Positions 659 through 4,750 of a stretch of 24,000 nt of DNA are shown here, one piece after another. The first letter of the stretch is position 1. Every line of letters starts with the position of its first letter. A model generated the notes under the pieces. It did no database searches. It was not told where the DNA came from and saw only the letters and a list, made by a program, of their open reading frames with translations. This stretch comes from Rhodospirillaceae bacterium. Its GTDB lineage: Bacteria > Pseudomonadota > Alphaproteobacteria > Rhodospirillales > JABHCV01. The stretch is from positions 58,817 through 82,816 of the forward strand of contig JABMOQ010000007.1 in the NCBI GenBank assembly GCA_013204045.1, read 5' to 3'. Made by a program: the position numbers and the translations under genes.

Positions 659-1084
659 TCAGGCTGGCTTTGGCACAACGAGGACTTTTTCGGTGCGGTA
701 GCGTCCTTCACATTCATCAACAGATGTTTTAACGATGGCGGCCATCATCCCCAGATCATGTTTCAGCCAACGTTCTTTATAGTCATCGGGTATTTTTGCT
801 TCGGTTAATGACTCTGCAAGCAGGTTGTGACGAATCATGAAAACCTCTTCGGTAATATAAAGATGTTGATGGGCGCGCATGGGTAAGCGGCCGCAAAAAC
901 CCGCAGGTTTCTGACCGAATAAATCGGCCATGAAGTCGGTCTGTTGATCTTCCAGAACCCAACGCTCCACGCCGACAAAGAATCCTTTTAACCAGGGATG
1001 GGAAAGCAACTTGTCATAAAGAATTTTGTGCACCCGCTTGATGCAGTCTTTACCTCCAATTTCATCAATAAATGACAGCGGCAT
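659..1084 (-). CDS. truncated (2-on-2) hemoglobin-like globin
   Basis: The 141-aa ORF shows the trHb pattern: IGG near the N-terminus, V..ILYDKLL.HP.L..FF, Q.DF....G, and M..AH..L.IT...F followed by L..SL.EA.IP. AGGAG lies about 9 nt upstream of the ATG. It is the last gene of a same-strand cluster with the reductase and the CDGSH protein. Confidence 0.6.
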   Translation of the reverse strand: MPLSFIDEIGGKDCIKRVHKILYDKLLSHPWLKGFFVGVERWVLEDQQTDFMADLFGQKPAGFCGRLPMRAHQHLYITEEVFMIRHNLLAESLTEAKIPDDYKERWLKHDLGMMAAIVKTSVDECEGRYRTEKVLVVPKPA

Positions 1085-1115
1085 GCGACAATTCTCCTAA
1101 AGAAATCAGACTGCC

Positions 1116-2105
1116 CTAAGACCTGGGCTGTTTACGCAAATCTTTGAGCTCATACGGATCCGTATATATATCTACCACCTCGGCGCTTGCCGCCAATGCC
1201 CGGTCTTTGGCGCTGTTTACCATCGGCGGATACCCGCACAAAAATACGCGCCAGTCTTTCAAATCCGGCAGGTCGGAAAACGCAACGTCGTCCGCCCTGC
1301 CTTTACGGTATCCTTCAGGCTCGGCCTGGCGCGAAACACAGGGAATATAATGGAAATTATCATGGGCCGCTTGCAGGGCGCGCAGCGTGTCGCCCAGATA
1401 AAGCCCGGCCACTGTCTGGCTGCCGTGGTAGAGACGGACCCGTGCCGTATGTCCCGAAAAAAGCGCATCCCTTGCAATACCAATAAGTGGTGCAAGGCCG
1501 GTACCATTACCGATGAGAAGCATATTTTGATCGGCGCGGCCCGGTTGATAAAAACAATTACCCATTGGACCTTGCACACCCAGATGATCCCCTGGCTTCA
1601 GGTCATCCATGATCCAATTGCTCATCTGGCCTCGTTCAAGGCGCTTAATATGAAATTCAAGACGGCTATCCATTTTTGGCACACTGGCCAGTGAATAGCT
1701 GCGGGCCAACCCATCTTCGCGGCGCAAATTCATGAATTGGCCGGCGCGGTAATAGAGGGGGGTCGTCGGTTCCAGGAAAACCCGGCAGATATCTTGCTGC
1801 AGATATTCAATGTCCTGCACCACAGTCGGGCCGAACAAATCCTGCTGGTCTATATTGACGACGCGCATATCCGATGTTGGCTGGCATACACAAGGCAGGA
1901 AATGTCCCTGGGCCGCCATGGATTCCCGCAAACCATCCTGGGCGAGCGCTGGCACGTCGCCTTCCTCCACCCGCATGACGCAGGTTACGCAAACCCCCAT
2001 CTTGCAGGAATACGGGACGTCCTGCCCATTTTCGAGCAACACTTCAAGGACCGTTTGGCCGGCCCTGCAAGGAAAGACGCGGTTATAAAAGTGTAAGCTG
2101 ACCAT
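1116..2105 (-). CDS. 2Fe-2S ferredoxin / FNR-family NAD(P)H oxidoreductase fusion (reductase component)
   Basis: The N-terminus has a plant-type ferredoxin cysteine motif (SCKMGVCVTCV...PCVC). It is followed by the FAD-binding RSYSLAS motif and the NAD(P)-binding LIGNGTGLAPL motif. The ORF is 329 aa. Confidence 0.85.
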   Translation of the reverse strand: MVSLHFYNRVFPCRAGQTVLEVLLENGQDVPYSCKMGVCVTCVMRVEEGDVPALAQDGLRESMAAQGHFLPCVCQPTSDMRVVNIDQQDLFGPTVVQDIEYLQQDICRVFLEPTTPLYYRAGQFMNLRREDGLARSYSLASVPKMDSRLEFHIKRLERGQMSNWIMDDLKPGDHLGVQGPMGNCFYQPGRADQNMLLIGNGTGLAPLIGIARDALFSGHTARVRLYHGSQTVAGLYLGDTLRALQAAHDNFHYIPCVSRQAEPEGYRKGRADDVAFSDLPDLKDWRVFLCGYPPMVNSAKDRALAASAEVVDIYTDPYELKDLRKQPRS

Positions 2106-2123
2106 AATGGCGGATTGCAGGAT

Positions 2124-2369
2124 TTACAGGCTGTTATGGGTGCTGTCGCAAATGGCGCCGCGCTTGCTGGCCTTGCAGCCACAAAAGGATACCCTTTTGG
2201 TCGCTTCCGCCGTGTAGAGCACGGGTTTAATGCCGGTGCCTTCGTGGGAACCATCGCAAAAAGGCTGCGTCTTGCTGCGACCACAGGCACACCAATTATA
2301 GGTTTTGCCTTCTTCTACTTCCTCAAAATAGGGGAAGGGTTGGGCTACTACAGGATCGGTCATTGACAA
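2124..2369 (-). CDS. CDGSH iron-sulfur domain protein (two CDGSH-type motifs)
   Basis: The 81-aa ORF contains CACGRSKTQPFCDGSH and a second, degenerate copy, CGCKASKRGAICDSTH. An alternative ATG lies two codons in (2363). Confidence 0.85.
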   Translation of the reverse strand: MSMTDPVVAQPFPYFEEVEEGKTYNWCACGRSKTQPFCDGSHEGTGIKPVLYTAEATKRVSFCGCKASKRGAICDSTHNSL

Positions 2370-2738: not shown

Positions 2739-4241
2739 ATGCTCAAGAAAAGTCCCGTTGATGCTAAAATGTTTCAGCAAATGGTCGACAACATCCCGGT
2801 CAACGTCATGATCTGTGACCTCAAGGATTTCCGCATCACCTATATGAACCGGACCAGCCTGGACACCCTGCGCACCATTGAAAAGTTGCTACCGTGCCGG
2901 GCCGACGAAATGCTGGGTCAGTGCATCGATATTTTCCATAAAGCCCCCGAGCATCAGCGCCGCCTGCTGGCCGATCCCAGAAACCTGCCGTTCCAGTCCA
3001 ATATCAAGCTGGGTGATGAAACCCTTGATCTGCTGGTTACCGCCATTACCGACAGTGGCGGCAAGTATATTGCACCGATGCTGACGTGGAGCGTCATCAC
3101 CGACAAGATCAAGGCCGAAGAAGCAACCAACCGCCAGGAGCAAATGCTCGATCAGATGCCCATCAACGTCATGTTCCTGGAGCCGGAAAACTTCAACATC
3201 ACCTACGTCAACAAGACCAGTACTGATACCCTGAGGCCCCTGGAATCCCTGCTCCCCTGCAAAGTCGATAATCTGGTTGGCCAATGTGTCGATATCTTCC
3301 ATAAACACCCGGCCCATCAACGTGGTATTCTGTCGGACCCGGCAAATCTGCCCCATAACGCCAAGATCATGCTCGGTGAAGAAACCCTTGATCTGAGAGT
3401 CAACGCCATCAACAGCAAGGAAGGCAAATACATCGGCGCCATGCTGTCATGGTCGGTGGTTACCAGGCAGGTTAACATGGCCAATAACTTCGAGGCCAAT
3501 ATCAAGGGCGTCGTTAATTCTGTTTCGGCGGCCTCGACCCAGATGCAATCAACTGCCGAATCCATGGCCGCCACGGCCGAAGAAACCAACAATCAGGCTT
3601 CGGCCGTTGCCGCCGCGTCGGAACAGTTGGGCGCGTCGGTCAATGAAATCTCGCAACAGGTCAGCCGTTCGTCGACCATTGCCGCCACGGCCGTTGAAGA
3701 GGCCGACCGTTCCGACAAGATGATCCAGGGGTTGGCCGAAGCCGCCCAGCGGATCGGAGAGGTCGTCGGCTTGATCACCGACATCGCATCACAGACCAAC
3801 CTGCTGGCGCTTAACGCGACCATCGAGGCCGCCCGCGCCGGTGATGCCGGCAAGGGCTTCGCCGTGGTGGCAAGTGAAGTTAAAAACCTTGCCAGCCAAA
3901 CCGCCAAGGCGACGGACGAAATTTCCGGGCAGATCAACGCCATCCAGGGGGCAACGTCTGATGCGGTTTCTGCCATTCAGGGAATTTCCAAGACCATCAA
4001 TGAAATCAGCGAGATTTCAACCGCCATATCGGCGTCGGTCGAGGAACAAAGCGCGGCGACCCAGGAAGTGACCGGCAACATCACCGGCGTCACCACCGCA
4101 TCCGGCGAAACCGGGCAGGCCGCCAATCAGGTTCTGGAAGCGGCACGCGAACTGTCACAACAGGCTGAGCATCTGGGCGTACAGGTCGATGACTTCCTGG
4201 TCGAAATTCGCGAAGAGGGCGACTCCTCAAAAAAAAAGTAG
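2739..4241 (+). CDS. soluble methyl-accepting chemotaxis protein with two tandem PAS domains (Aer2-like PAS, no TM or HAMP region seen)
   Basis: AGGAGG lies upstream of the ATG. Two paralogous PAS modules share I/VDIFHK.P.HQR..L.DP.NLP.......LG.ETLDL.V.AI....GKYI..ML.WSV.T. The canonical MCP signalling hairpin [34 protein letters not shown] follows. No hydrophobic segment is present. The protein ends ...EEGDSSKKK*. Confidence 0.95.
4229..4238 (+). other. A9 homopolymer forming an in-frame A_AAA_AAG slippery heptamer directly before the MCP stop codon (candidate -1 recoding or transcriptional slippage site)
   Basis: Sequence 4227-4241 reads tca aaa aaa aag tag in the MCP frame. A_AAA_AAG (4232-4238) is the dnaX-type -1 frameshift heptamer. 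A GAGGG SD-like element lies at 4215-4219, 12 nt upstream. The presence of the motif is certain; its function is inference. Confidence 0.45.
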
Positions 4242-4750
4242 ATAAACCGGCCCCCGGGCCAACCGCGGGCGGTGACAAAGTTGTCACCGCTTCCGCGCCG
4301 CCCCCCAAACCCGCGCCGACCGCGACCAGCAGCGACGGACCATTCTCGGGCCGCCAGATCGAGGTTGTCAAAGGCACCTTTGCCAAGGTCCTTCCGATTG
4401 CCGATCAGGCTGCCGAACTTTTCTACAACAAGCTGTTCGAACTTGATCCCAATCTGCGTCCCTTGTTCAAAGGTGATATGACCGAACAGGGCCGCAAATT
4501 GATGACCATGATCAAGACTACCGTTAACGGCCTGGACAAGCTCGACACCATCCTTCCGGCGGTCGAGAGCCTGGGCAAACGCCATGGCGGTTACGGGGCC
4601 AAGGACGGCGACTACGATACCGTCGGTACGGCCCTGCTGTGGACATTGGGACAGGGGCTTGGAGCCGATTTCACCCCCGAAGCCGAAGACGCCTGGACCA
4701 GCGTCTACGGCACCATAGCGGCAACCATGAAGTATGCGGCAAAGGCCTGA
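4238..4750 (+). CDS. Pro/Ala-rich linker plus VHb/flavohemoglobin-type globin domain; this ORF has no start codon of its own and lies in the -1 frame relative to the MCP gene
   Basis: This frame is open from 4193 to the TGA at 4748-4750. My translation from 4238 reads [93 protein letters not shown]...[59 protein letters not shown]. It has B10 Tyr, E7 Gln, the proximal His in KRH, and the RPLF / LPAV / Y..VG..LL / DAW...Y pattern of VHb-like globins. No ATG, GTG or TTG occurs in frame before the TTG at 4463, which would remove helices A to C. Confidence 0.7.
4269..4290 (+). other. perfect 9-bp hairpin (GCGGTGACA-aagt-TGTCACCGC) inside the linker-coding region
   Basis: I checked the inverted repeat base by base. 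No U-tract follows it. It starts 30 nt after the slippery heptamer. Confidence 0.4.

What the first reader, a model, noticed from the sequence alone, without database searches (positions are those of the whole stretch)
4193..4750. Start-less globin domain in the -1 frame behind the chemoreceptor gene, joined at an A9 / A_AAA_AAG slippery site
Seen in the sequence: the MCP frame ends tca aaa aaa aag tag, with an A9 run at 4229-4237. The -1 frame is open from 4193. After the A run it encodes a Pro/Ala/Thr linker ([35 protein letters not shown]) and then a full VHb/flavohemoglobin-type globin, with helix A onwards intact, Tyr B10, Gln E7 and the KRH proximal His. That frame has no ATG, GTG or TTG until the TTG at 4463, which lies inside the globin fold. 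Established knowledge: A_AAA_AAG is the dnaX -1 frameshift heptamer, and runs of 9 or more A residues support transcriptional slippage. A GAGGG element lies 12 nt upstream and GC-rich hairpins lie downstream (GGCC-cccg-GGCC at 4249-4260, and a perfect 9-bp stem at 4269-4290). Inference: a -1 shift or one extra A yields a protein of about 670 aa with PAS-PAS-MCP-linker-globin architecture. A C-terminal F-type globin on a chemoreceptor would be unusual, because known globin-coupled sensors carry an N-terminal sensor globin. Alternatives are a homopolymer sequencing error (true A10, a plain fusion), phase variation, or a recent inactivating frameshift.
Basis: partly seen in the sequence, partly recalled or inferred. 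Interest (0 to 1): 0.75.

Follow-up and report, generated by a model that had tools for sequence, protein, structure and literature searches.

The report
Slippery poly-A joins chemoreceptor to globin
A bacterial oxygen-sensing chemoreceptor gene and a start-less globin domain behind it are separated by one missing A in a run of nine, and relatives keep this run and its flanking stop codons frozen, so the run most likely acts as a programmed slippage site that makes the receptor with or without the globin.

Summary
A 500-aa PAS-PAS-MCP gene (2739-4241) ends TCA AAA AAA AAG TAG. An intact globin with no start codon lies in the -1 frame up to 4750.

It is not an assembly error. The identical A9 junction was read in five further contigs from other metagenome assemblies, and the 500-aa product is recorded on 11 contigs. 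One of those assemblies (FLOH01) carries A10 in a relative.

In-frame PAS-PAS-MCP-globin fusions of 636-676 aa are common among relatives. Three other lineages, about 80% identical, are split at the same place (A9 or A11, then a stop). In each the globin is intact, has no start codon, and sits in the -1 frame.

Eleven of 12 lineages with KKK at the junction encode it as pure AAA AAA AAA. The next Val codon is the rare GTA in 9 of 9. Every alternative frame stops within 1-4 codons. All other conserved Lys and Val columns mix codons.

This matches the dnaX tau/gamma arrangement. Transcriptional slippage, possibly with -1 ribosomal frameshifting, most likely produces both a short receptor and a long receptor-globin isoform. 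DNA-level phase variation is not excluded, and no RNA or protein evidence exists.

The C-terminal globin on an Aer2-like heme-PAS chemoreceptor appears undescribed.

The parts
2739..4241 (+). Zero-frame ORF, the short isoform: a 500-aa soluble PAS-PAS-MCP chemoreceptor ending ...EEGDSSKKK*
   Evidence: MCPsignal PF00015 E=7e-33, PAS_8 E=1e-9. The exact protein is recorded on 11 contigs and named NQV46316.1, MAG Rhodospirillaceae bacterium.
2775..3113 (+). PAS1, an Aer2-type (heme-binding) PAS domain
   Evidence: matches PDB 6ceq at 1e-14, 3vol at 2e-12 and 4hi4 at 4e-11. The motif DIFHKxPxHQR is present.
3138..3476 (+). PAS2, a duplicate of PAS1
   Evidence: 56% identical to PAS1 over 113 aa, E=5e-52.
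3681..4160 (+). MCP signalling (kinase-control) domain
   Evidence: PF00015 covers residues 315-474.
4215..4219 (+). GAGGG, a Shine-Dalgarno-like element 12 nt upstream of the heptamer. It is also the Glu-Gly codons.
   Evidence: The same element at the same spacing occurs in L048 and L060, but it encodes the conserved E-G residues, so it is not independent evidence.
4229..4237 (+). A9 run: the slippery tract and the junction between the two frames
   Evidence: The junction is identical in L043-L046 and L062. Runs of 9-11 A are kept in 11 of 12 lineages with KKK at the junction.
4232..4238 (+). A_AAA_AAG heptamer in the MCP frame (the dnaX-type -1 frameshift motif)
   Evidence: Read directly. 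The frame is set by the ATG at 2739.
4239..4241 (+). TAG stop of the short isoform, directly after the run. In the globin frame it is the TAG inside GTA GAT.
   Evidence: All 11 run lineages have a stop at this position in the 'one A fewer' frame.
4238..4342 (+). Pro/Ala/Thr-rich linker in the -1 frame (VDKPAPG...SSDGP, 35 aa). It holds no ATG, GTG or TTG.
   Evidence: It is about 20 aa longer than in relatives.
4249..4290 (+). GC-rich hairpins: GGCC-CCCG-GGCC at 4249-4260 and a 9-bp stem at 4269-4290
   Evidence: z=-3.45. They are not conserved in sequence among relatives, and the strong stem starts 30 nt after the heptamer.
4343..4750 (+). Globin domain in the -1 frame, helix A to helix H, including the TGA stop at 4748-4750
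   Evidence: PF00042 E=5e-14; 3wfw 6e-27, 3s1i 4e-25; Tyr B10, Gln E7 and His F8 aligned. dN/dS against relatives is 0.08-0.30.

Best explanation
The A run at the MCP/globin boundary is a conserved, selected slippery site. It lets one gene make two receptors.

- The short isoform is the PAS-PAS-MCP protein (500 aa).
- The long isoform carries a C-terminal heme globin (670 aa).

In this organism the DNA reads A9, so standard decoding gives the short receptor, which stops at the TAG right after the run. RNA polymerase slipping on the T9 template adds one A to a fraction of transcripts. Alternatively, or in addition, ribosomes shift -1 on A_AAA_AAG. Either event puts the globin in frame and gives ...[12 protein letters not shown]...globin.

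In sister lineages the DNA encodes the fusion in frame (A10 after TCA/ACA, or A9 after CCC/TCT). There the same slippage yields the short form, because both alternative frames stop within 1-4 codons.

Over evolutionary time, one-base changes in the tract switch a lineage between 'long by default' and 'short by default' without loss of either product. This is the logic of dnaX tau/gamma.

Shown here:
- the anatomy of the junction;
- reproducibility of A9 across assemblies;
- recurrence of the split in other lineages;
- frozen synonymous sites at the junction;
- intact, constrained globins.

Inferred:
- that slippage actually occurs;
- which polymerase or ribosome step dominates;
- that both isoforms function.
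For: 1. A9 is real. The identical junction was read in L043-L046 and L062, contigs 99.1-99.97% identical to the window, from JGI samples 3300033274, 3300032736 and 3300033275, Logan run SRR28106042 and assembly FLOH01. All three sequence variants in the 90% cluster are 500 aa, on 11 contigs. Assembly FLOH01 also carries an A10 in-frame relative (L057) and an A9 in-frame relative (L053), so there is no systematic homopolymer collapse.
2. In-frame orthologues of 636-676 aa show that the fusion is the family architecture.
3. Three further lineages are split at the same codon, each with the globin intact in the -1 frame.
   - L048-L051: TCA AAA AAA AAG TAG, identical in 4 runs from 2 projects.
   - L052: AGT + A11 + G TAG.
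   - L060: TCA + A8 + C TAA.
4. No ATG, GTG or TTG lies upstream of helix A in any of the four split lineages. No + strand promoter or terminator lies between the MCP and the globin.
5. By MCP identity the split lineages are scattered among in-frame ones, which implies at least 3 independent switches.
6. Synonymous sites are frozen only at the junction.
   - 11 of 12 KKK lineages use AAA AAA AAA.
   - The 10 other invariant-Lys columns all mix AAA and AAG.
   - The next Val is GTA in 9 of 9. GTA is 8% of Val codons in these genes and never exceeds 2 of 11 in the 37 other conserved-Val columns.
7. In 11 of 11 run lineages the 'one A fewer' frame stops immediately (TAG, TAA or TGA). In the seven in-frame lineages the 'one A more' frame stops 2-4 codons later. 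This is the hallmark described for Thermus dnaX (PMC5009743).
8. Globin dN/dS is 0.10-0.13 in the four computable pairs of split lineages, with dS above 1.
9. Between the window and L062 (both A9, 0.8% diverged) the MCP has 17 SNPs. The linker plus globin has changes in only one codon and no indels.
10. The short isoform ends about where natural globin-less relatives end (P0232, P0175, P0191...FLVEVRAQ/QM). It is therefore a complete receptor.
11. Runs of 9 A or T give efficient RNA polymerase slippage in bacteria, and additions predominate (PMC5009743). All four split lineages need exactly +1 A.
Against: - There are no RNA or protein data, so slippage and the fusion protein are inferred.
- Pairwise dN/dS integrates time spent in the in-frame state. 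The frameshift within each lineage could be young; divergence within lineages is 1% or less.
- The selected run and adjacent stops are equally expected for a DNA-level phase-variable switch.
- L052 and L060 each rest on a single contig, and L060 has about 2.7x coverage.
- The lineages used in the codon control were chosen for having the run. The unbiased counts are 11 of 12 for the run. The 9 of 9 GTA and 11 of 11 stop counts were not selected for.
- The downstream hairpins are not placed or conserved as classical -1 frameshift stimulators.
- From my own knowledge, alphaproteobacteria usually carry a tRNA-Lys(CUU), which should weaken shifting on AAG. No tRNA gene lies in the window to check this.
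Confidence: 0.6

Rival explanations
1. DNA-level phase variation, that is, a contingency locus. Slipped-strand mispairing at the poly-A tract during replication heritably switches cells between globin-ON (A10) and globin-OFF (A9). The assembled A9 is merely the majority allele, and RNA-level slippage is irrelevant.
For: - The homopolymer of 9-11 nt lies inside a coding region, and its state differs among related lineages with at least 3 independent switches.
- The tract is conserved at nucleotide level.
- A clean stop follows in the OFF frame.
- Poly-A/T tracts are recognised phase-variation signals (PMC3711429).
Against: - Within every lineage sampled more than once the state is fixed.
  - Window lineage: three protein variants, all 500 aa, on 11 contigs. 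The window and L062 are 0.8% diverged and both A9.
  - L048 lineage: four runs from two projects.
  - L054/L058, L047/L057, L063/L064 and L065/L066 agree within each pair.
- Exact-sequence look-ups found no opposite-state allele of eight lineages among about 15 billion proteins.
- Consensus assemblies hide minority alleles, so this evidence is not decisive.
- The two mechanisms are not exclusive.
Confidence: 0.2
2. Recent inactivating frameshifts. The hypermutable A run lost one base independently in several lineages. The globin domain is simply no longer made and has not yet had time to decay.
For: - Homopolymers are deletion hot spots.
- All four split lineages are of the one-base-deletion type.
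- Divergence within each lineage is small, 1% or less, so the events could be young.
- Globin-less relatives exist (P0232, P0175), so the short receptor is viable.
Against: - Four of about 12 run-bearing lineages are split, yet none shows a second lesion, a stop or a deletion in about 510 nt.
- In-frame lineages preserve the pure A run, the rare GTA codon and stops in both alternative frames against saturated synonymous change. A mere mutational liability would be expected to be interrupted by AAG, as happened in L068 and L059.
- Between two A9 strains the linker plus globin shows changes in one codon. The MCP shows 15 synonymous changes.
Confidence: 0.12
3. Homopolymer sequencing or assembly error. 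The true sequence is A10 and the gene is a plain in-frame fusion.
For: Homopolymers are the classic site of indel errors, and A10 would give exactly the junction seen in relatives (SKKKVD).
Against: - The same A9 was read in five further contigs from independent assemblies made by different pipelines (JGI, Logan, ENA/FLOH01), and the 500-aa product is recorded on 11 contigs.
- The FLOH01 assembly resolves A10 in a relative (L057).
- A second lineage gives A9 in four independent read sets.
Confidence: 0.04
4. The globin is an independent downstream gene, translated by reinitiation or from a non-canonical start after the MCP stop.
For: - Gene callers annotate 90-117 aa globin fragments downstream.
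- L060 has a GTG inside helix A, and L052 has one inside the fold, about 12 residues further in.
Against: - No ATG, GTG or TTG lies upstream of helix A in any split lineage.
- The first candidates in the window (TTG 4463) and in L048 lie after helix B, so the product would lack helices A and B, including Tyr B10.
- No promoter-like site was found on the + strand.
- The linker is homologous to the in-frame linker of the fused orthologues.
Confidence: 0.04

Closest known systems
dnaX tau/gamma: E. coli -1 frameshift on A_AAA_AAG; Thermus thermophilus transcriptional slippage on A9; Chlorobi two-ORF dnaX with A7-A10
   Same: - Two products are made from one gene at a poly-A tract placed at a domain boundary.
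- The short product ends at stops placed directly after the tract in the alternative frames.
- Orthologues differ in whether the long product is encoded in frame (Thermus) or needs the shift (Chlorobi) (PMC5009743; PMC3711429).
- The window carries the exact E. coli heptamer and an SD-like element 12 nt upstream.
   Different: - The protein family is different: a chemoreceptor, not a replication clamp-loader subunit.
- No conserved stem-loop lies 5-9 nt downstream.
- The product ratio is unknown and there is no experimental evidence.
- The optional part here is a ligand-binding heme domain.
Shigella flexneri mxiE/spa genes, and endosymbiont (Buchnera, Blochmannia) poly(A) tracts rescued by RNA polymerase slippage
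   Same: Runs of about 9-10 A or T in chromosomal genes. Slippage yields an extended product (mxiE) or restores frameshifted genes (PMC5009743).
   Different: - In the endosymbionts, as I recall it, the tracts are by-products of AT bias and drift. Here the genes are 51-57% GC, and the tract is the only frozen synonymous patch.
- There is no link to secretion systems.
Globin-coupled sensors such as HemAT
   Same: A heme globin and an MCP signalling domain sit in one soluble aerotaxis-type receptor.
   Different: - Globin-coupled sensors have an N-terminal sensor globin (PMC13401364).
- Here the globin is C-terminal, beyond the end of the signalling domain. It belongs to the Methylacidiphilum HGb / neuroglobin / VHb lineage.
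- The N-terminus carries two Aer2-type PAS domains.
Aer2 PAS-heme chemoreceptors (P. aeruginosa, V. cholerae, V. vulnificus)
   Same: The PAS domains match the solved Aer2 heme-PAS structures (6ceq, 3vol, 4hi4). The receptor is soluble and has multiple PAS domains.
   Different: - Pfam detects no HAMP domains.
- There are two tandem PAS domains, three in L060.
- There is an extra C-terminal globin.
Azospirillum Tlp1 and Aer with a C-terminal PilZ domain
   Same: This is a precedent for a small ligand-binding domain appended after the MCP signalling domain that modulates aerotaxis (PMC13401364).
   Different: PilZ binds c-di-GMP, whereas here the domain is a heme globin. No recoding is involved in the Azospirillum proteins.
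Methylacidiphilum infernorum HGb proteins, including HGbRL (globin fused to Roadblock/LC7; PDB 3wfw)
   Same: These are the closest solved relatives of the globin domain (E=6e-27 to 4e-25). Tyr B10, Gln E7 and His F8 are shared.
   Different: They are stand-alone or N-terminal globins and are not attached to chemoreceptors.

Membership tests
Programmed transcriptional slippage site (Thermus dnaX type) | Homopolymer of about 9 or more A or T in the coding strand at the frame junction | tested here: met
   A9 at 4229-4237. Runs of A9-A11 occur in 11 lineages.
Programmed transcriptional slippage site (Thermus dnaX type) | The tract is conserved at nucleotide level beyond what the protein sequence requires | tested here: met
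   11 of 12 KKK lineages use pure AAA. The 10 other invariant-Lys columns all mix AAA and AAG.
Programmed transcriptional slippage site (Thermus dnaX type) | Stop codons close by in the alternative frames, so that slipped transcripts give a defined short product | tested here: met
   An immediate stop follows in the 'one A fewer' frame in 11 of 11 run lineages. In the seven in-frame lineages a stop follows 2-4 codons into the 'one A more' frame. The rare GTA Val codon that creates the stop is present in 9 of 9.
Programmed transcriptional slippage site (Thermus dnaX type) | mRNA population heterogeneous in tract length, and two protein products | not testable with these tools
   No reads, transcriptomes or proteomes are available.
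-1 programmed ribosomal frameshift (E. coli dnaX / IS3 type) | X_XXY_YYZ heptamer in the zero frame | tested here: met
   A_AAA_AAG at 4232-4238. The same heptamer occurs in L048 and L052, and L060 has A_AAA_AAC.
-1 programmed ribosomal frameshift (E. coli dnaX / IS3 type) | Stimulatory stem-loop or pseudoknot about 5-9 nt downstream, conserved among orthologues | tested here: not met
   In the three A_AAA_AAG lineages the stable stems start 24-30 nt after the run, and about 13 nt in L060. They differ in sequence and have z from -0.9 to -4.2. Only a 4-bp GGCC hairpin lies at +10 in the window.
-1 programmed ribosomal frameshift (E. coli dnaX / IS3 type) | Upstream SD-like element 10-14 nt from the heptamer | tested here: inconclusive
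   GAGGG lies 12 nt upstream in the window, L048 and L060, but it encodes the conserved Glu-Gly residues. L052 has GAAGGAAG.
Phase-variable contingency locus | Tract length polymorphic among closely related strains or within populations | tested here: not met
   No length variation was seen within any of six lineages sampled two or more times. No opposite-state protein was found in exact look-ups. These are consensus-level data only, and read-level data are not available.
Globin fold (PF00042; HGb / neuroglobin / VHb / flavohemoglobin lineage) | Full-length match to the globin profile, with proximal His F8 and distal Tyr B10 / Gln E7 | tested here: met
   PF00042 E=5e-14. PDB 3wfw 6e-27, 3s1i 4e-25 and VHb 4e-12, with LFY, QGRKLM and KRH aligned.
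Globin-coupled sensor (HemAT-type) | N-terminal sensor globin upstream of the output domain | tested here: not met
   The globin lies C-terminal to the MCP domain. The closest solved relatives are HGb proteins and neuroglobin, not sensor globins. The N-terminal definition comes from PMC13401364.
Aer2-type PAS-heme chemoreceptor | PAS domain homologous to the Aer2 heme-binding PAS | tested here: met
   6ceq 1e-14, 3vol 2e-12 and 4hi4 4e-11. PAS2 is 56% identical to PAS1. Heme binding itself was not tested.
Aer2-type PAS-heme chemoreceptor | HAMP domains flanking the PAS domain | tested here: not met
   No HAMP hit in Pfam at E<=0.01.

The most novel reading that the evidence does not exclude
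The poly-A tract works as an isoform-ratio dial for a three-heme aerotaxis receptor. RNA polymerase slippage continuously produces a mix of globin-bearing and globin-less subunits, which co-assemble in the same cytoplasmic chemoreceptor dimers and arrays. The genomic tract length (A9, A10 or A11) sets the default ratio for each lineage. Conditions that alter transcription elongation, or ribosome shifting on A_AAA_AAG, could tune how much globin decorates the array. That would make domain composition of a sensory receptor a quantitatively regulated trait set by recoding, with repeated evolutionary resetting between 'long by default' and 'short by default'.
Probability: 0.25. Interest if true: 0.85.

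Novelty: new variant of a known kind. Interest (0 to 1): 0.72.

Why it matters
Recoding by slippage at poly-A is well known for dnaX, insertion sequences, phage tail genes and a few secretion genes. I found no report of it in a chemoreceptor, and no report of an MCP with a C-terminal globin.

If confirmed, it would give three things.

1. A conserved cellular recoding site outside the classic cases. Natural 'both polarity' orthologues, in-frame and split, would be ideal for measuring how tract length sets isoform ratios.
2. A new receptor architecture: two Aer2-type heme-PAS domains plus an optional high-affinity-type globin. This poses a direct question about how a domain beyond the signalling tip modulates aerotaxis.
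3. A practical warning. Gene callers split these genes into an 'MCP' and a truncated 'globin', so the family is mis-annotated in MAG catalogues.

The claim can be tested directly with existing metagenome and metatranscriptome reads and with simple reporters.

Tried and rejected
- **Independent globin gene.** Rejected. No canonical start codon lies before helix A in any split lineage. No + strand promoter or terminator lies between the ORFs.
- **One-off assembly error.** Rejected by five further contigs with the identical junction, and by A10 being resolved in the FLOH01 assembly.
- **Classical -1 frameshift stimulators.** The 75 nt downstream and 60 nt upstream were folded in 11 lineages. Structures are stronger in two split lineages (z -3.5 and -4.2) but are neither positioned nor conserved as stimulators. 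No upstream structure was found.
- **Opposite-state alleles as a sign of phase variation.** Exact look-ups of A10 versions of three split lineages and one-A-fewer versions of four in-frame lineages found nothing.
- **Selection after the frameshift.** Pairwise dN/dS is low but cannot date the frameshifts. The within-lineage SNP comparison is suggestive but has low power.
- **tRNA-Lys complement.** No tRNA genes lie in the window.
- **DNA for P0137** (junction SKKNK) could not be retrieved.
- **Literature.** Searches for a C-terminal-globin MCP or for recoding in chemoreceptors found nothing relevant. The GeneTack paper's main text does not mention chemotaxis or globin; its supplements were not searched.
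- **First genome-collection scan**. It returned mostly stand-alone globins, and the source species itself was not among the hits.
Full report
**1. What is in the window**

The + strand ORF 2739-4241 encodes a 500-aa soluble chemoreceptor. It has two tandem PAS domains that are 56% identical to each other. They match the solved heme-binding PAS domains of Aer2 receptors: 6ceq at 1e-14, 3vol and 4hi4. An MCP signalling domain follows (PF00015, E=7e-33).

The ORF ends GAC TCC TCA AAA AAA AAG TAG. The A9 run is 4229-4237, the heptamer A_AAA_AAG is 4232-4238, and the TAG is 4239-4241.

The -1 frame is open from 4193 to the TGA at 4748-4750. After the run it encodes a 35-aa Pro/Ala/Thr linker and a complete globin (PF00042, E=5e-14). 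The closest solved relatives of the globin are the Methylacidiphilum infernorum HGb proteins (3wfw 6e-27, 3s1i, 3ubc). Neuroglobin, Vitreoscilla Hb (4e-12) and flavohemoglobins (about 1e-9) follow. Tyr B10, Gln E7 and His F8 are aligned.

The first ATG, GTG or TTG in that frame is the TTG at 4463, inside the fold. No + strand promoter-like or terminator-like site separates the two ORFs.

**2. The frameshift is real DNA, not a one-off error**

The exact 500-aa protein is on record from several assemblies.
- Loci L043-L046 come from three JGI samples and one Logan run. L062 comes from FLOH01000281.1.
- They are 99.1-99.97% identical to the window and all read A9.
- The 90% cluster holds three sequence variants, all 500 aa, on 11 contigs. 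One is NQV46316.1, a MAG assigned to Rhodospirillaceae.
- The FLOH01 assembly also contains a relative with A10 in frame (L057) and one with A9 in frame (L053). The pipeline therefore does not systematically shorten such runs.

**3. The fusion is the family architecture**

A search with the conceptual 670-aa fusion found many full-length in-frame PAS-PAS-MCP-globin proteins.
- P0125, P0126, P0127, P0129 and P0131 are 649-657 aa and 77-79% identical, with 100% coverage.
- P0137 is 640 aa.
- P0159, P0161, P0162, P0163 and P0166 are 636-676 aa and about 65% identical.

Several lie at the same locus, between ppk and the SDR/Hda genes. Their junctions read ...DGEDSKKKVDNAAG......EDPKKKVTETEK... and so on. 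That is exactly what one extra A would give in the window (...[14 protein letters not shown]...).

The wider family is modular.
- Some members carry the same globin at the N-terminus (P0191, P0133, P0124, L002).
- Some carry a truncated hemoglobin at either end (P0189/L065 at the C-terminus; P0177, P0122 and others at the N-terminus).
- One carries two C-terminal globins (L003).

**4. The split recurs**

Three other lineages, whose MCP part is 80-81% identical to the window, are split at the same codon.

| Lineage | Junction DNA | Support |
|---|---|---|
| L048-L051 (P0173, 500 aa) | GGC TCA AAA AAA AAG TAG, the same 15-mer as the window in otherwise diverged DNA | identical in four sequencing runs from two projects |
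| L052 (P0179, 499 aa) | AGT + A11 + G TAG | one contig |
| L060 (P0128; three PAS, 621 aa) | TCA + A8 + C TAA | one contig at about 2.7x coverage |

In all three the globin is intact and in the -1 frame, so it needs one extra A. None has a canonical start codon upstream of helix A.

By MCP identity the split lineages are scattered among in-frame ones.
- L060 sits with L053, L055, L058 and L059.
- L048 and L052 sit with in-frame L057.
- The window stands alone.

This implies at least three independent changes of state.

**5. The tract and its surroundings are under nucleotide-level selection**

I read junction DNA for 16 lineages. Twelve have KKK at the junction. Eleven of those encode it as AAA AAA AAA (run length 9-11). 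Only L068 uses AAG AAA AAG.

The same genes use AAA for about half of their Lys codons. In an alignment of the 11 run lineages, the 10 other invariant-Lys columns all mix AAA and AAG. Those 11 lineages were picked for having the run, so 11 of 12 is the unbiased figure.

Two further features were not selected for.
- The codon after the run is Val in nine lineages and is GTA in all nine. GTA is 8% of Val codons in these genes. In the 37 other conserved-Val columns it never exceeds 2 of 11, and every column mixes codons.
- GTA followed by a purine (or CTG/CTA followed by A in the two Leu lineages) places a stop codon immediately after the run in the 'one A fewer' frame in 11 of 11 lineages. In the seven in-frame lineages the 'one A more' frame stops 2-4 codons later.

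Synonymous divergence between these lineages is saturated, with dS about 1-2. This patch is therefore frozen by selection, not by recency.

**6. The globin is constrained**

- dN/dS of the globin part is 0.10-0.13 in the four computable pairs of split lineages and 0.03-0.30 overall. The MCP part gives 0.03-0.14.
- These pairwise values include time spent in the in-frame state. They show the frame is functional in the family but cannot date the shifts.
- Within the window lineage, the window and L062 are both A9. They differ at 17 positions in the MCP (15 synonymous). In the 512-nt linker plus globin they differ in only one codon, with no indel. This is consistent with constraint while split, but the power is low.

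**7. Mechanism**

The arrangement matches dnaX. The poly-A tract sits at a domain boundary, stops lie close by in both alternative frames, and orthologues encode the long product either in frame (Thermus) or across two ORFs (Chlorobi) (PMC5009743; PMC3711429).

Bacterial RNA polymerase slips efficiently on runs of 9 A or T, and additions predominate. All four split lineages need exactly +1 A.

The window, L048 and L052 also carry the strongest known bacterial -1 heptamer, A_AAA_AAG. In the window, L048 and L060 an SD-like GAGGG lies 12 nt upstream. Four points argue against relying on the ribosomal route.
- GAGGG is simply the conserved Glu-Gly codons.
- L060 has A_AAA_AAC.
- In the three A_AAA_AAG lineages the stable downstream stems begin 24-30 nt past the run, and about 13 nt in L060. 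They are not conserved in sequence (z -3.45, -4.19, -1.47 and -0.87 in split lineages, against +1.4 to -3.0 in in-frame ones).
- From my own knowledge, alphaproteobacteria usually have a tRNA-Lys(CUU), which reduces shifting on AAG. This is the argument the review makes for Thermus.

I therefore favour transcriptional slippage as the common mechanism, with ribosomal -1 shifting as a possible contributor.

The short product ends about 10 residues beyond where globin-less relatives end naturally (P0232, P0175, P0191). It should be a complete receptor.

**8. Rivals**

- **DNA-level phase variation.** It would explain the conserved tract, the clean stop and the scattered states equally well. Against it, every lineage sampled more than once is fixed in one state, and no opposite-state protein exists among about 15 billion sequences. 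Consensus assemblies cannot exclude minority alleles. The two mechanisms can also coexist, since any such tract will slip occasionally in DNA and thereby reset the default isoform.
- **Repeated recent pseudogenisation.** This is hard to reconcile with the frozen tract, the frozen stops and the absence of any second lesion.
- **Assembly error and independent translation of the globin.** Both are rejected (sections 1 and 2).

**9. Comparison with known systems, and novelty**

The site works like dnaX and meets every computable criterion of a programmed slippage site. It fails the downstream-stimulator criterion of a classical -1 frameshift site.

The protein is not a globin-coupled sensor in the accepted sense, because those have an N-terminal sensor globin (PMC13401364). 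It is an Aer2-like heme-PAS receptor without detectable HAMP domains, carrying an optional C-terminal HGb/neuroglobin-like globin. A C-terminal modulatory domain on an aerotaxis receptor has a precedent in the PilZ domains of Azospirillum Tlp1 and Aer.

I found no paper on a C-terminal-globin MCP or on recoding in chemoreceptor genes. I rate it a new variant of a known kind. The mechanism is familiar. What is new is its use to toggle a sensory domain, together with an undescribed receptor architecture.

**10. Verdict**

The emphasis on frameshift stimulators is not supported.

What remains unproven is expression: slipped transcripts, the fusion protein and the isoform ratio. All of these can be tested directly with existing reads and simple reporters.

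Noticed in passing
window 659-2369 (- strand): Three small redox or heme-type genes lie between ppk and the chemoreceptor: a 141-aa protein weakly resembling truncated hemoglobin (PF01152 E=6e-4, just below the cut-off), a 329-aa 2Fe-2S/FAD/NAD(P) reductase, and an 81-aa CDGSH iron-sulfur protein. This trio is absent from the same position in L048 (a His_Phos_1 gene instead) and in L052 (nothing).
   Followed up: partly
window 2775-3476; L060 1537-3402: The PAS domains are Aer2-type heme PAS domains with the motif DIFHKxPxHQR, duplicated in tandem. L060 has three copies and more distant relatives up to five or six. With the globin, the long isoform would carry three heme sites.
   Followed up: partly
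L065 1501-3393 (P0189); L003 2319-3977; L002 4001-5926; P0177, P0122, P0191, P0133: The family shuffles heme domains. L065 has a truncated hemoglobin (PF01152) instead of the PF00042 globin at the C-terminus, behind the same TCT AAA AAA AAA GTA A junction. L003 has two tandem C-terminal globins. Other members carry either globin type at the N-terminus. The poly-A junction may mark a reusable module boundary.
   Followed up: partly
L048 about 4527-4566: In the L048 lineage the linker hairpin CCCGGTGT...ACACCGGG is followed by CCTTTTTCT (the Gly-Pro-Phe-Ser codons). This looks like an intrinsic terminator between the MCP stop and the globin. The GPFS codons give GGGCCNTTTTC in several relatives. 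No possible attenuator role was examined.
   Followed up: no
L002 4673-4675: In this Rhodospirillaceae MAG the globin-PAS-PAS-MCP gene is interrupted by an in-frame TAA inside the conserved PAS motif (FHKAP*HQRK). The reading frame continues unchanged. It is a nonsense mutation or a base error, unrelated to the poly-A site.
   Followed up: partly
P0001-P0040: The best-scoring relatives of the globin alone are proteins of about 290 aa, found in Polaribacter, Aquimarina and similar organisms. Their length and scores suggest two tandem globin domains. I know of no description of these, and their sequences were not examined.
   Followed up: no
window 4238-4342: The window lineage's linker is about 20 aa longer than in all relatives, with an extra [20 protein letters not shown] segment. 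The 9-bp perfect hairpin at 4269-4290 lies within this lineage-specific insertion.
   Followed up: no
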